Shown here: one piece after another, positions 2,387-53,367 of the stretch
How positions within the stretch are numbered: position 1 is the stretch's first letter
Layout of the letters: every line of letters starts with the position of its first letter
Origin: Octopus vulgaris
Taxonomy: Eukaryota
Length of the DNA stretch: 64,000 nucleotides
NCBI GenBank assembly: GCA_951406725.2
Contig: OX597829.1
Location: 28,272,001-28,336,000, forward strand
Reading direction: 5' to 3'
Made by a program: the position numbers and the translations under genes
The notes under the pieces: generated by a model
Databases searched by the model: none
What the model saw: only the letters and a program-made list of their open reading frames with translations
What the model was told of the DNA's origin: nothing

Positions 2387-3213
2387 AGAACAACTGTTCT
2401 TTATTTATTTTGAATTTCTAACATACTAAACCTTTAGGAGCACATTCAATGGCATACTAATATTTCATTTATAAGTATATTTTTGCTCATTATTTTACTG
2501 CTATAAATGCAATGGATAGAAAGACATTATACTTCATATTCTATGTGATAAGTATGTGCTGTTAGTAAATACAGCCTGCTGTCATTTGTAAGTGAATACA
2601 GCTTGGCAGCAAGTACCATTCTTTTTTGCTAATTGTTGTAGGTGCCTACATAGTCACAAGTTGAAAAGATACTGTTTTGACTTTCTTGGCCTTTACCCAG
2701 CAGAAGAACATGTTGGATATTAGAGATAGAGGGTGGCAGGGTTCCATTAGCACACAGCTGGTAATTGCTTCTGCCAAGTAAACTGGAGCAAAGGCAAGTA
2801 CCTCCTTGCTCAAGAACATAGCATACTACCTTCTTCAAGTACCTTGCTCAAGAACATAGCATACTACTTGGTCTAAGCATTGAATCCCCCAACCAATGAT
2901 CATGAGCTTGATACCCTGACCACTAAGCCACACACTTTCATACAAAGAATGTAGAGAAGAAATATTCTTACATAGTTATATTAAGTTCACTCAAATTATA
3001 AGCTTTCTTTTTTCTTCCTCTTCATGAATAACATGCTTCATATTTTAAGAGAATATTTAAAAAGTTTTGTTTAAAATTAAAAATTTTTAGAAAAACCTTT
3101 CATATTTTGAAACAGACTCTATATATATATATATATATAAAATGTGACCTTGTATGTACCGTTGGCGATTTTTTCCCTCTGTCTTCCCTTCTCTGGATCT
3201 TTCCTTCTCCTAT

Positions 3214-3248
3214 GTTTCCGACGAAGAGCTCCGCTCGAAACGTTAAAC
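3214..3248 (+). ncRNA. Minimal type-I hammerhead ribozyme-like motif (U4C core variant) in a (TA)n-flanked element at about 3138-3330
   Basis: GTTT-CCGACGA-A-GAGC(TCC)GCTC-GAAA-CG-TT-AAAC: stem I GTTT/AAAC, stem II GAGC/GCTC, palindromic stem III AACGTT. Confidence 0.6.
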
Positions 3249-3882
3249 CCTCCTTCTTTCCTGAGCGTCCAATAATACTATATTTGTTCCACATCCTCGC
3301 ATTGTTGTGTTTTCTTGTTTGGATTAACTTTATATATATATATATATATATATATATATAGAGAGAGAGAGAGAGAGAGAGAGATATGGATACATGCATA
3401 TGCACACACACACACACACACAACTTTAATAAATACATACTTTCTGTCAATCAATCCAATATTATTATTTTCATCATCTTAATTATCTTTTTAATGTCTA
3501 ATTTGGACAGCTCTCAAGTACAGCATATCTTTACATATCATTTAGCATTTAAACTAGCAATATCCAGTCAAAATATTTTCCCTGTATGATGTTCAAACTG
3601 GCCAGATCCAGCCTCTCACATCTACTGTCCACTGTTAGTCTAAAAAATATACAGTCACATCACTGAAATCTCAACACTACAAAATAATGCAGGATAAACT
3701 GAAAACAATGTGAATAAATAAGTATTACATTTGATAGAGTAATCTTAATGTTAAACATACCATCTCACAAACCAGTTCGGTTACCTGGACATCCTTGTTA
3801 CTTATTTGCATTATATATATATATATTACGTAGATGTACTCGCATAGCAAGTGATTTGATCTGAGATCATGTGCTGGAACGA

Positions 3883-4184
3883 AAACAATTGCAGCGTGGA
3901 AGGTGTTTGTAAGCCATTTAAGAAACACACAAAAGCTGTTCAATTCACTTCAACATTTAAGTTTAATTTGTCAAAATATTTTCGTCGCTAAAATCCGCGA
4001 CCTGTTCACTGACAAAAATCCGTGCTGCAAAAATCCGTGCAGCACGGATTTTTGTCAGTGAACAGGTCGCGGATTTTGGCGACGAAAATATTTTGACAAA
4101 TTAAACTTAAATGTTGAAGTGAATCGAACGGCTTTTGTGTGTTTCTTAAATGGCTTACAAACACCTTCCACGCTGCAATTGTTT
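3883..4184. repeat. Long palindrome (147-bp arms, 8-nt loop) in a (TA)n tract; probable inverted Penelope-like terminal repeat
   Basis: 3883-4029 is the reverse complement of 4038-4184 with three transition mismatches. An unpaired extension of about 55 bp lies on the left, with TA runs on both sides. Confidence 0.9.
4051..4100 (+). ncRNA. Hammerhead ribozyme-like fold with G3-C8 core (mirror copy at 3967-4016, minus strand)
   Basis: TTTGTCA-GTGAACA-G-GTCGC(GGATTTTG)GCGAC-GAAA-ATAT-TT-TGACAAA: 7-bp stem I, 5-bp stem II, palindromic stem III. Confidence 0.65.
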
Positions 4185-4260
4185 ATATATATATATATAA
4201 ATATATGAAGCAGGTGTATTAATATTATTTCAATAATATTTATATTTTCATGTATGTATA

Positions 4261-49639: not shown

Positions 49640-50800
49640 GAGTCAATCATTTACTAACATAATCAAGTACACCAATGATTATTCGTATAAATGTGAATTT
49701 ATAATCAGGGTAGAAGAGTTGCAGGTTTCAAAGCAGTTCCCCATAACAATCTTTCTAGCTGATTTTGGAACGGTATCTCATATCTGCAGGGCAAAGTTGG
49801 AAAATTTGGTTATTTCTTACCTACACATAGTTATGTTCCCTGAATCCTGTTTGTCTGTATTCCTGTATCTTAATCTGTGATCTGTGTATTGTGATCATGT
49901 GTTTGTCTTAAGGACTCTCTAGTTTGTTCTATGTAATGCTCTCCACATCCTGAGCATTGCATAGATTATGTTTTCAGATGCATGAGTGCATTTTATTGTG
50001 AAGCACTGTCCTTGTTTAAAACAGATCTCTCATTCTTCTGACAGATTAAGACATATACCACAGTTAGGCCTTCTGCATTTTTTTAATTATTGATCCTATT
50101 GTGAAGTTTCGCCTTTGTTAGTATCTTTTGTTCTTTATGAAGGTATGTGTTTAGAGGATTTAGTTCAAACTGGGATTTTTTTTTCAGTGTTGGTATGTTT
50201 TAGAATATGAGGTTATACAGATCATTGTTTTAGGGATTGCAGGTGGAAACATGTAGTAATACTTTCAATTCTAATGTATTTATTTGTCTTGTATTCCATT
50301 ATCAGTTAAGGATAGTAATTCCTGTCAAGGAGTGTATCCTTCAGTTCTTGAAGATTTATGTCTTATGTCACGGATATTTGCACAGGATATTATTGTATAG
50401 ATTCTTATAGCTAGGTTATGAGCGACATTTATTCTGGTGTGTCTTGGATGGCATGAATTGAATAGAAAATATTGTTTGGAATTCATAAGTAAATGTTGAT
50501 CTCTTTTTCTTGTTGACTTATCAGGATGTATAAAAATGGGCATTGATTATAGCTATATTCCATGGTGGATGGTATACTTTTATTAATTCCATAGAAGAGT
50601 GTTTCAACTTGTAGTTTTTGTATGTTTTCATTCCACAGGATGAAGCAATCATCAATGTACCTTTTCCATTTTTCTTGTTTATATTTGAAGAAAGAGTTTC
50701 CATATTTTTGTAGTGATTTTTGGTATAGTGTAATCTCTAGATAACCCATAACTACATTTGCAAGGAATGAGGTTGTTTTTGTTTCCATCAAAGTCCCAGG
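49640..50800 (-). mobile_element. Decayed Penelope-like element RT and C-terminal remnant
   Basis: MxTKxxSFLANVVMGYLE...WKRYIDDCFILW and SKQYFLFNSCHPRHTRINVAHNLAIRI are typical of the PLE RT and thumb. Downstream sequence is frameshifted where a GIY-YIG domain would lie. Confidence 0.8.
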
Positions 50801-51607
50801 AATATAAATATAAAGTATGTGTTCCCTAGAATAAAGTTTAGTCCTATTATACTACATGTGTGTATGAGCACTTATGTATGTATGTACATACACACATATG
50901 AACTCTTTTCCTTGTATTTGTATTCATATACAGACATCTTTACAATGCATCAACGATAAGAATTTCATAGTTTAGAAATGATTCAAAGAATCTTGCTATT
51001 CTGCTGACAACATTCCATTATTTTATCTGTAAAGCAACATAGTATATCACTGATGAAAGATATTTTATACACATTATAACCATTTTTTTCCAAGTTGGCA
51101 TGATTTAGACATAACCTATTGAAGACTATTTGTAGTTAGATACACTTCTTGTCACCAACATCCACTTGTTTTTCTTTCAAGAAAGATATTTCCTATACCA
51201 CTGGTCCACAAAGATCTGCTGAACTACAAGACATGTTTCTGATTTTTGTTCATATGTTGTTGTTGATGAAGACATGCTCTCTCATGTTTGTACATACAAG
51301 CGGGTGTGGAAAAGTTGTTGGCTTCAGGTAAAAGAAAGTAGAGGAGGATCAGTTAATTATGATTTTATCCAACATATTCCCCTCTCAGATTCATACACTT
51401 ATTGCAGCAGTCCTGTAAAAGAAATTGGAAGGTTGGACCTCCAATTGGGCCTATCGTGATACCTTTAAAGCTAAGAACACACACACACATGCAATATATA
51501 TATATATATATATATAATTAATTAAGGGTAGAAATTGATATTAGTCAATTAAAACCAGTGGTCTAGCACATTAAAAAGAATCCGAAGATTAAAATATTTA
51601 TATATAC

Positions 51608-51799
51608 CAATTAAGGACTGAACATGAAAAGTGGACAGTCAACATGCTAGATATAGACGTCAAATCACCATTCTCCACAAAGATTATGTTCTCAAATAAA
51701 TATTATTTATTTGAGAACATAATCTTTGTGGAGAATGGTGATTTGACGTCTATATCTAGCATGTTGACTGTCCACTTTTCATGTTCAGTCCTTTAATTG
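51608..51799. repeat. Near-perfect palindrome (95/96-bp arms, 1-nt centre) in a (TA)n tract
   Basis: 51608-51702 is the reverse complement of 51704-51799 with one indel near the outer end. An extension of about 90 bp lies on the left, with TA runs on both sides. Confidence 0.9.
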
Positions 51800-53367
51800 A
51801 TATATATATATATATATATATATATATATATATATATATATATATATAGTTATGTATACAATATAATAAAAATCAAAGTGGAACACAGAAATGACCAATG
51901 GAAAAGTTTAAATAAAAATGAAAATCCTCTCATCAGCCATAGAGACCCGAATCAGCAGTTTCACACACACACACACATTAGGCTTCTGTATACTTTCCAC
52001 CTTCTAACATAGGAATCCTACAATCACTCTGTCCTTTTTTTTCCTTAATTTTAATATCCAAATTAAGTGTGAAAATAGTTTTCAACTAAATATATTATTT
52101 ACTGCAAAGATGAAGTGGAGTTTTTTATGTATCTGGATCAATAGTTTTTCAGCACTAATCACTCAACTATGATAAGTAAAACCTAATGTCAGATAATGCA
52201 ATGTACTTTACCAAAAGATGCAGTACAATAGCTGTATCTTATGGCTGTGTGGTCAGAATCCAAAGACTTTAACTTTTTTGTTATTTAACACCCTGAAACC
52301 CTCACTGGTTCTATAATAAAAAAACTTCCAGTTTAAATTTATCTAAATGAAAACCTTCCTTTAAAACTCTATGTTAATTTATGTTCCAAGCATCAGTTCA
52401 AGAAGGAAAAAGGTATTTTACAATATTCTTCATTATTTAAATTTATTTAAATACAGGCAGTGTATTTCAACAGACACTGGGTAACAAAAGCATTAAAATG
52501 ATCTAAATTAAAACCCTTATTAAAATACTCATGTTAAATTATGTTCCAAGCAGCTTAATAATGACAAAGTTATTTTATTAAATGGAAATTTATTGGAACA
52601 AAGGCAGTGTATTTCAACAGAAATATGGTAACGAAAAGGTTAATCTACCAGTTCTCAGTCTTTTGTAGTGTAGCAATGTCTTTCATTGAGTAGTGTTTAC
52701 AAACACCCACTCATAATCTTTTGTGAAAACAAAAAAAAGGTAAGTTATTGTAATCAAATAGAAGCAATAGTTTATTATTCACCTTTTCTTATAATATCCC
52801 ATGTACCGCTTTTTAGATATTTACTTCAAGTTTTTTATAAAAAAAAAAAGACTCAGATTATATATATTACACTGGACCTTGGTTTGGCTCATCATCAGAC
52901 ATGTTTCTTCTCACTGATAACACAATGTAGAACTGAAATTTTAATCCTGTCAAAAGTTTTGGGATATAAAAGTATTATATCTAATTAAAAAATTGTATTT
53001 CCTATGTAGCTTAAATGTTCATTTTTGTACTTTACAACCTCTCTAAACATGCAGCACGCCCCTTAGCAACCACTTGAGAGTTCACAATGCCTCCAATGAC
53101 TCAACATGTCAGCCTAGTAGGACCCATATGTCTTCATTTCTGTATGAACAGAATGATTTGAACTTATCACAGCAAGCTAATGAAATGACATGAGAATCCA
53201 TTCAGTTACTCCACAACTTTATTCAATGAAATGAACCAAAAACATGCTATTACTAATTTAGAGCCAAGTAGACTGGGACATTGAAGAATATATATCTCTT
53301 ACATTTGAGGTGGCAATATGGCAGAGTTGTTAGAATATCTGGTAGTATTTGTTCTGACTCTCTACAC

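What the first reader, a model, noticed from the sequence alone, without database searches (positions are those of the whole stretch)
3138..51850. Recurrent (TA)n-embedded mini-elements carrying hammerhead ribozyme folds, often as head-to-head palindromes
Seen: five short elements of mostly unrelated sequence (about 3138-3330, 3828-4184, 25262-25556, 40240-40605, 51516-51799) each sit inside a (TA)n tract. Three have the layout TA run, unpaired extension, long palindrome, TA run. Four contain a minimal type-I hammerhead fold with a short palindromic stem III (AACGTT, AAATATTT, CTCAGAG, CAGCTG). Established: Penelope-like retroelements carry minimal hammerheads with palindromic stem III in their terminal repeats, which cleave as dimers, and they often have inverted terminal repeats. 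Inference: these are several distinct families of TA-targeting, ribozyme-bearing PLE termini or non-autonomous derivatives. The decayed PLE RT at 49640-50800 shows the enzyme class is present in this genome.
Basis: partly seen in the sequence, partly recalled or inferred. Interest (0 to 1): 0.85.

Follow-up and report, generated by a model that had tools for sequence, protein, structure and literature searches.

The report
Penelope ends and a Penelope-mobilised retrozyme
The five small repeats are short copies from Penelope-like retrotransposon families with predicted hammerhead ribozymes; three trace to protein-coding parents, and one is a non-coding ribozyme repeat whose insertions carry Penelope's marks, so Penelope enzymes likely spread it.

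Summary
All five elements (E1-E5) are multicopy: 2,014-9,252 exact 23-25-mer matches for E1, E2, E3 and E5. The layout TA / one-sided extension / palindrome / TA is the published Penelope-like element (PLE) signature: a tail plus an inverted, 5'-shortened copy.

Longer copies lead E3 into intact 727-aa Hydra-clade ORFs, E1 into a Neptune-like RT+GIY-YIG ORF, and E2 into an RT+GIY-YIG ORF that looks Nematis-like. E4 is an old family with no parent found. The decayed RT at 49640-50911 was not shown to be the parent of any.

(1) E5 is a 505-512-bp non-coding tandem unit with a covarying canonical hammerhead, which the window copy lacks. It looks like a retrozyme, yet inserts with PLE tail, inversion and (TA)n target, up to about 7 units at once.
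(2) E2 carries a natural G3:C8 swapped core in 2,312 exact matches, against 0 for C3:G8.
(3) 5' ends of mini-copies pile up at a likely transcription start, with an extra G in E2, and not at the ribozyme cut.

Cleavage and expression are untested.

The parts
3140..3332 (+). E1: 3' terminal repeat of a Neptune-like PLE, single arm, between TA runs
3214..3248 (+). E1 minimal hammerhead fold, C at core position 4, predicted cut after 3244 (GUU)
3827..3882 (-). E2 tail (about 56 nt between the two 3' ends)
3883..4029 (-). E2 left arm with G3:C8 hammerhead fold at 4016-3967
4038..4184 (+). E2 inverted arm with G3:C8 hammerhead fold at 4051-4100, predicted cut after 4093 (UUU)
25262..25328 (-). E3 tail; in tandem full-length copies it is 5' leader just upstream of the ORF
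25329..25444 (-). E3 left arm, terminal repeat of a young Hydra-clade PLE, hammerhead fold at 25404-25367
25446..25556 (+). E3 inverted arm, hammerhead fold at 25486-25523, predicted cut after 25519 (GUA)
40243..40605 (+). E4: old (70-83% identity) hammerhead-bearing element with PLE-type two 3' ends; core at 40298, stem I damaged in this copy; parent not found
51516..51593 (-). E5 tail (unit positions 1-78)
51594..51702 (-). E5 left arm: 3' fragment of a 505-512-bp retrozyme-like unit, shortened before its hammerhead
51699..51799 (+). E5 inverted arm, ending at unit position 79
49640..50911 (-). Decayed Neptune-like PLE RT+GIY-YIG remnant; not shown to be related to E1-E5

Best explanation
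Three of the five elements are terminal-repeat copies of Penelope-like families that encode RT plus GIY-YIG endonuclease, a fourth (E4) likely is, and E5 is a non-coding hammerhead repeat that these enzymes likely copy in trans. Likely mechanism: the endonuclease nicks (TA)n or AT-rich DNA on both strands. RT then starts inside the RNA at one of two fixed sites 56-78 nt apart (about 200 in E4); the gap between them is the tail. Two cDNAs, one from each site, join 5'-to-5' and give the asymmetric palindrome. Many mini-copies are likely complete copies of the 5' tip of a transcript that starts in the terminal repeat, so they stop at the transcription start and not at the ribozyme cut. E5 likely behaves as a retrozyme: tandem transcripts self-cleave, circularise, and are copied more than once round. 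Shown: copy numbers, layout, ORF links, covariation, end positions. Inferred: cleavage, transcription start, circles, and which protein moves E5.
For: E3: long copies hold RT+EN ORFs; 150 of 150 scored protein matches are 94-100% identical and many have 727-aa open frames; repeat-ORF-repeat tandems and a 6.1-kb palindrome occur. E1 joins through a CA-rich UTR to RT+EN frames in L319 and L317. E2 joins to RT+EN frames in L283 and L285 (Pfam GIY-YIG E=1.4e-4). Two fixed 3' ends per family: E2 about +89/+146, E3 +42/+113 (both include a few TA bases), E5 unit positions 79 and 1. 5'-to-5' pairs: E2 13/87, E3 32/65, E5 35/50 loci, with 3'-to-3' pairs in 0, 1, 0. Craig 2021 (PMC8557442) describes this layout; Frangieh 2024 (PMC11167929) shows two internal RT start sites bounding the tail and that ribozyme mutants still insert in vitro. 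5' ends: E2 35 of 51 arms lie at -62..-45 from the cut, E3 16 of 50 at -53..-41, E1 19 of 29 at -111..-91 with none longer; none lies exactly at the cut. In E2, 14 of 27 short arms have G where the long copy has C (10 C, 2 T, 1 A). E5: 38 of 44 unit starts follow another unit and 6 follow an inverted piece of the same unit; no ORF of 50 aa in a 7-unit array; 7 of 12 stem pairs change on both sides, 98.1% paired, 0/500 shuffles; unit fold z = -5.65; 6 of 9 multi-unit arrays have private variants in every unit.
Against: No autonomous partner with sequence similarity to E5 or E4 was found: E5 was compared with E1-E4 references and a second Hydra family, and E4 loci with PLE proteins. E4's 3' end is next to TA in only 3 of 28 loci. 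Three of 9 E5 arrays have no private variant shared by all units, and 4 columns are shared by only some units, which fits multimeric templates or local gene conversion as well as circles. Covariation counts sequences, not events. The E3 pile-up is weaker (15 of 50 arms longer, 19 shorter) and sits at a short palindromic word that could itself favour junctions. E2's boundary also looks like a splice acceptor. In 2 of 14 E2 palindromes the arms come from different subfamilies. Monomer MFE folds give the hammerhead shape only for E2 and E5.
Confidence: 0.8

Rival explanations
1. All five, E5 included, are plain 5'-truncated ends of autonomous PLEs. Truncation is random, and E5's tandems come from local amplification after insertion.
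For: Random 5' truncation is the textbook PLE pattern (PMC8557442), and long copies exist for E1-E3. Most E5 arms are short, with spread 5' ends. The 2026 preprint 10.64898/2026.07.22.740005 proposes local amplification of terminal repeats into tandems.
Against: None of 44 E5 unit starts follows non-E5 sequence. In most of the 12 arrays fetched, tandems sit on one or both arms of one TA-flanked insertion with ends at unit positions 1 and 79. E1 and E2 5' ends have a sharp edge, with an extra G in E2.
Confidence: 0.15
2. The palindromes are MITEs of a TA-targeting DNA transposon (Tc1/mariner type) or microRNA-like hairpins.
For: TA flanks and near-perfect inverted arms. Rfam's best hits at E2, E3 and E5 are microRNA models, all below gathering score.
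Against: The palindrome centre moves from copy to copy, one arm always has a tail, arms reach kilobases, and long copies contain RT+GIY-YIG ORFs.
Confidence: 0.02
3. The palindromes are fold-back artefacts of long-read sequencing or assembly.
For: Some arms are 99-100% identical.
Against: The asymmetry is family-specific and fixed. E1 has 0 of 99 inverted pairs in the same assembly. Old E4 copies also carry inverted arms. Some arms belong to different subfamilies.
Confidence: 0.02
4. The hammerhead folds in E1-E3 are relics that no longer cleave.
For: E1 has C4 in 5,775 of 8,190 exact matches. E3 varies freely at 11.1 and has a C4 subfamily. E2 has a UUU triplet. No 5' ends sit at the cut. PLE minimal ribozymes cleave weakly in vitro (PMC4209133).
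Against: E2 changed both partners of the 3-8 pair, a swap that partly restores activity in a PLE ribozyme (PMC11167929), and its loop II varies while stems are kept. U4C is tolerated in vivo in a viroid (PMC3088659). This rival concerns activity only and is compatible with the main reading.
Confidence: 0.3

Closest known systems
Hydra-clade PLEs (Craig et al. 2021, PMC8557442; includes Hydra-1_Obim from Octopus bimaculoides)
   Same: E3's ORF has RWK, DKT, CxCx5C, CxxC and CxH around the conserved E and N, no CCHH, a (TA)n target, and a hammerhead whose stems I and III resemble, by eye, the one in the supplement record printed just above Hydra-1_Obim.
   Different: It is a different family from Hydra-1_Obim by eye (not aligned). 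Unit about 3.35 kb with a 1.1-kb 3' UTR, tail about 70 nt rather than 30-40, and very young with many intact ORFs.
Neptune-clade PLEs
   Same: E1's parent has a C-terminal GIY-YIG behind a C-x4-C-xx-C linker, and RT motifs close to a row printed beside Neptune1_Ac in the Craig supplement alignment (row name cut off, by eye). TA-targeted.
   Different: No inverted copies (0/99) and a mostly C4 core. No tree was built.
Nematis-clade PLEs
   Same: [quoted passage not shown] The clade label is from my recall of the motifs.
   Different: G3:C8 core, which I did not find reported as natural. Many insertions are in AT-rich sites with duplications rather than (TA)n.
Metazoan non-LTR retrozymes (Cervera and de la Pena 2020, PMC7229834; Li et al. 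2026 preprint)
   Same: E5 is a non-coding, 33% GC tandem unit with one type I hammerhead per unit and a stable fold.
   Different: Unit of 505-512 bp, above the roughly 300 bp typical size. Insertions show tail, inversion and (TA)n flanks, which the passages I read do not describe; those papers argue for PLEs from co-occurrence and terminal-repeat similarity.
Non-autonomous Chlamys elements such as MRC1 (PMC8557442, section 10)
   Same: Non-coding PLE derivatives with head-to-tail copies.
   Different: Those generally resemble an autonomous family at the 3' end, and most Chlamys lack hammerheads; E5 has a hammerhead and no partner found.

Membership tests
Penelope-like element (EN+) | ORF with RT and GIY-YIG endonuclease joined to the terminal repeat | tested here: met
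   E3; E1; E2. Applies to E1-E3 only.
Penelope-like element (EN+) | Same ORF link for E4 and E5 | tested here: not met
   No PLE ORF joined to E4 in 60 overlapping loci or to E5. Expected if non-autonomous; E4 was followed only about 430 nt upstream.
Penelope-like element (EN+) | Partial tandem forming pseudo-LTRs | tested here: met
   E3: L189, L191. Not shown for E1 or E2.
Penelope-like element (EN+) | Inverted 5'-shortened copy and one-sided tail | tested here: met
   E2, E3, E5 and E4. E1 lacks inverted copies (0/99).
Penelope-like element (EN+) | Type I hammerhead in the terminal repeat | tested here: met
   Sequence and fold only; cores of E1-E3 deviate.
Penelope-like element (EN+) | Ribozyme cleavage and retrotransposition activity | not testable with these tools
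   Needs bench assays.
Hydra clade (E3) | RWK, DKT, CxCx5C linker, CxxC/CxH, no CCHH | tested here: met
   Read from translations against PMC8557442 section 11. The second linker Cys is Phe in the L191 subfamily.
Hydra clade (E3) | (TA)n insertion | tested here: met
   24 of 28 against a control rate of 0.089.
Hydra clade (E3) | RT phylogeny | not tested
   No reference set was available in the script box.
Neptune (E1) / Nematis (E2) | Zn-finger linker before a C-terminal EN | tested here: met
   Translations. The feature is shared by both clades.
Neptune (E1) / Nematis (E2) | Clade placement by RT tree | not tested
   Labels rest on motif likeness (by eye; recall for Nematis).
Non-LTR retrozyme (E5) | Non-coding tandem unit, GC under 45%, one type I hammerhead per unit | tested here: met
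Non-LTR retrozyme (E5) | Conserved core with covarying stems | tested here: met
Non-LTR retrozyme (E5) | Self-cleavage and accumulation as circular RNA | not testable with these tools
   A ligated circle has the same sequence as a tandem junction; needs Northern blot or RNase R.
Tc1/mariner-type MITE | Fixed symmetric terminal inverted repeats and fixed length | tested here: not met
   Variable centre and one-sided tail.

The most novel reading that the evidence does not exclude
E5 is a cephalopod retrozyme whose insertions record Penelope RT running several times round a circular RNA from two fixed internal start sites. That would be direct genomic evidence for the proposed retrozyme life cycle. 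Beside it, E2 is an amplified natural G3:C8 hammerhead, and PLE mini-elements are cap-to-priming-site copies of the mRNA's 5' tip rather than random truncations.
Probability: 0.45. Interest if true: 0.72.

Novelty: new variant of a known kind. Interest (0 to 1): 0.52.

Why it matters
Most of the finding is known PLE biology in a new genome. Three points could matter.

(1) Who mobilises animal retrozymes is open: the papers read argue for PLEs from co-occurrence and sequence likeness. E5 shows the PLE integration marks on a retrozyme. The same genome holds two young Hydra families with intact 727-aa and 717-aa ORFs, so the pairing can be tested in vitro.

(2) A G3:C8 core amplified to thousands of copies would extend natural hammerhead variation. 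The papers read report U3:A8 as natural and G3:C8 only as an engineered rescue. Standard descriptors miss it.

(3) Sharp 5' edges with an extra G would explain why solo terminal repeats outnumber full elements, and they agree with in vitro data that uncut RNA is the template.

Tried and rejected
Rfam scan: no hammerhead family among 104 matches. Pfam gave nothing for the Hydra ORF or the E1 parent frames. A homologue search of the E3 protein gave 964 relatives; the best 120 were 41-58% identical and almost all unnamed, so no clade label came from it.

A Neptune-like family related to the window's decayed RT was checked as a parent: its 3' ends, printed for most of 30 loci, match none of E1-E5. 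Hydra fragments near E5 in L338 and L340 belong to a separate 717-aa family.

The idea that ribozyme cleavage sets the 5' ends was rejected. An apparent 5' pile-up in E4 at -90 was set aside as a likely indel artefact. In one search one helix was misplaced; one search is the corrected count.

Expression: no RNA holder listed on record. Contigs of three runs guessed to be RNA cover most of the E5 unit but cannot show strand, ends or circles; not used as evidence.

Earlier findings of the scan: nothing returned.

Literature searches. G3:C8 was sought; no natural case was seen. The 2017 Terminon paper was not held, most subscription papers are missing, and I did not open the supplements of PMC4209133 or PMC3088659, so a published natural G3:C8 is not excluded.
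Full report
Setting. The window is G000:C16:28272001-28336000 of a 2.8-Gb assembly in 227 contigs. It looks like an octopus genome; that is my recall of its SINEs and size, and no call names it. An exon of an integrin-linked-kinase-like gene lies at 33727-34068 on the minus strand (name recalled). 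I call the five elements E1 (3140-3332), E2 (3827-4184), E3 (25262-25556), E4 (40243-40605) and E5 (51516-51799).

Observation. A strict core descriptor finds nothing. E1 has C at core position 4, E2 has G3 and C8, and E3 has a canonical core with an A-A mismatch at the base of stem II. A descriptor widened after the fact finds 5 hits at E1-E3, against 1 in 40 shuffles. The E4 copy has a 4-nt duplication after the cut site. The E5 copy has no ribozyme.

Copy number and target. DNA searches gave 2114, 2218, 1053, 630 and 1181 first-look candidates for E1-E5. Exact motif counts are 6,909 (E1), 3,822 (E2), 9,252 (E3) and 2,014 (E5), with reversed-pattern controls at 0. E2's count is inflated: 21 of 71 sampled arms share one junction, and the 6 of them examined ride in the same other repeat. 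Among the best-scoring relatives, the 3' end lies next to (TA)4 or more in 22/29 (E1), 19/28 (E2), 24/28 (E3), 3/28 (E4) and 25/28 (E5), against 0.03-0.09 at random places in the same loci. For that count I dropped the window's own loci and one of each overlapping or duplicated pair. In the first 100 exact matches on contig C1, 5'-to-5' inverted pairs occur in 0/99, 13/87, 32/65 and 35/50 loci for E1, E2, E3 and E5. These are lower bounds, since both arms must match exactly.

Parents. E3's long copies run into an RT + GIY-YIG frame. All 150 scored protein matches are 94-100% identical, many with a 727-aa open frame. L191 shows repeat-ORF-UTR-repeat-tail-(TA)n, L189 a partial tandem, and L153 a 6.1-kb palindrome. 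The protein has the Hydra-clade marks listed by Craig et al. 2021 (PMC8557442; sections 10 and 11, passages and supplement hits read). E1 extends through a CA-rich UTR into Neptune-like RT+EN frames in 2 of 7 long regions fetched, with an EN fragment in a third. E2 extends through about 1 kb into RT+EN frames in L283 and L285; Nematis is my recalled label. E4 has two 3' ends (about +30 and +245 from the cut) and inverted arms, but no ORF was reached. The window's decayed RT is Neptune-like and was not shown to be a parent.

Known signature. Craig et al. describe an inverted 5'-truncated copy, a one-sided 30-40-bp tail, and (TA)n targets for Hydra and Naiad. Frangieh et al. 2024 (PMC11167929; main text read) show that PLE RT starts at two internal sites bounding the tail, that both DNA strands are cut, that ribozyme mutants still insert in vitro, and that C3G/G8C partly restores cleavage. 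Cervera and de la Pena 2014 (PMC4209133; parts 1-2 of 4 read) describe minimal PLE hammerheads, weak dimer cleavage and a natural U3:A8 core.

E5 is retrozyme-like. Longer copies reveal a 512-bp unit (505-507 in another subfamily) whose hammerhead lies upstream of the part kept in the window. Of 44 distinct unit starts, 38 follow another unit and 6 follow an inverted piece of the same unit. A 7-unit array has no ORF of 50 aa and is 33% GC. Across 31 distinct ribozyme sequences the first core box is invariant except at position 7. Seven of 12 stem pairs change on both sides, 98.1% of cells pair, 0 of 500 shuffles reach this, and slid controls show at most 2 such pairs; relatedness inflates such counts. 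I chose 12 multi-unit arrays from the listings. Most are bounded by TA and end at unit position 1 on one arm and 79 (or 1) on the other. In 6 of the 9 with two or more complete units, a private variant is present in every unit; 3 have none, and 4 columns are shared by only some units. This fits copying round a circle but does not exclude multimeric templates or later homogenisation. Cervera and de la Pena 2020 (PMC7229834; passages and discussion read) and Li et al. 2026 (10.64898/2026.07.22.740005; parts 1-3 of 5 read) propose PLEs as the mobiliser from co-occurrence and terminal-repeat similarity. I saw no mention of tail or inversion marks there. No partner with sequence similarity to E5 was found. 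By TA preference and inversion rate the Hydra families (727 aa and 717 aa, 44% identical) are the likely candidates; this is inference.

Core variants. E2's G3:C8 20-mer has 2,312 exact matches and the C3:G8 version has 0; 61 of 71 sampled cores are G3:C8 and 3 have G at both positions. A second E2 subfamily changes loop II only. E1 has C4 in 5,775 of 8,190 exact matches and U4 in 2,415. C4 recurs in an E3 subfamily and in the 717-aa family. Perreault 2011 (PMC3088659; passages read) reports natural U3:A8 and notes that U4C lowers activity in vitro but supports viroid infection. Searches for a natural G3:C8 found none, within a library that lacks most subscription papers.

5' ends. If self-cleavage set the template's start, copies would begin at the cut; none does exactly. 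After collapsing the 21 passenger copies, 35 of 51 E2 arms start 45-62 nt upstream of the cut, 6 further up and 10 further down. E1 has 19 of 29 at 91-111 nt and none longer (1 of 30 loci gave no row). E3 has 16 of 50 at 41-53 nt, 15 longer and 19 shorter. Among 27 short E2 arms that keep the boundary, 14 have G where the long copy has C, 10 have C, 2 T and 1 A (p about 1e-6 among the 17 non-C; the sample mixes best hits and unbiased loci). An added G is what copying a cap would give (recalled from L1 work). In E3 the tail lies in the leader just before the ORF. I infer that RT often primes on the 5' copy of the tail and copies only the first 150-200 nt of the transcript. A splice-acceptor reading of the E2 boundary remains possible.

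Arms. The two arms often share private variants, but 2 of 14 E2 pairs come from different subfamilies. Two cDNAs from one RNA, occasionally from two, is the simplest reading. The arms place the ribozymes on opposite strands, so the palindrome is an integration product and not the cleaving dimer.

Verdict. Known kind of element with real variants. PLE origin of E1-E3 is shown; for E4 it is likely. E5 as a PLE-mobilised retrozyme is likely (about 0.75), its copying from circles less so (about 0.5). Interest 0.52.

Noticed in passing
L358, L373-L377 (e.g. G000:C1:4381590-4384614): One E2 palindrome rides as a passenger in a non-autonomous element of more than 2 kb with a fixed start and internal tandem repeats, Helitron/Helentron-like by recall; 21 of 71 sampled E2 arms share its junction.
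   Followed up: partly
L605:484-7815 (G000:C21:8154600-8163600): A second very young Hydra family: 717-aa ORF, 2,590-bp tandems, C4 hammerhead, and a lysine in place of the usual arginine in the YRDD motif.
   Followed up: partly
L191:200-1723; L193-L222: An abundant Neptune-like family (150 of 150 scored EN matches at 92-100%) whose 3' end shows no obvious hammerhead and has two TA-flanked ends.
   Followed up: partly
L219, L205, L433, L004: A further E1-like short TA-flanked family with a similar stem II and stem III but a different core.
   Followed up: no
L228: About eight same-strand copies of the E2 hammerhead region at roughly 170-bp spacing; possibly a retrozyme-like array arising from E2.
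   Followed up: no
window 29345-31602 (-): A LINE reverse transcriptase in three long frames, RTE-like by recall.
   Followed up: no
window 33727-34068 (-): Ankyrin-repeat exon resembling integrin-linked kinase (name recalled); the elements may lie in introns of this gene.
   Followed up: no
window 4269-4425 and 4906-5062: An inverted pair of 157 nt, 88% complementary, 480 nt apart; possibly a MITE.
   Followed up: no
E5 unit positions 1 and 79: Both E5 3' ends fall just after the same 8-nt word, a candidate RT recognition signal.
   Followed up: no
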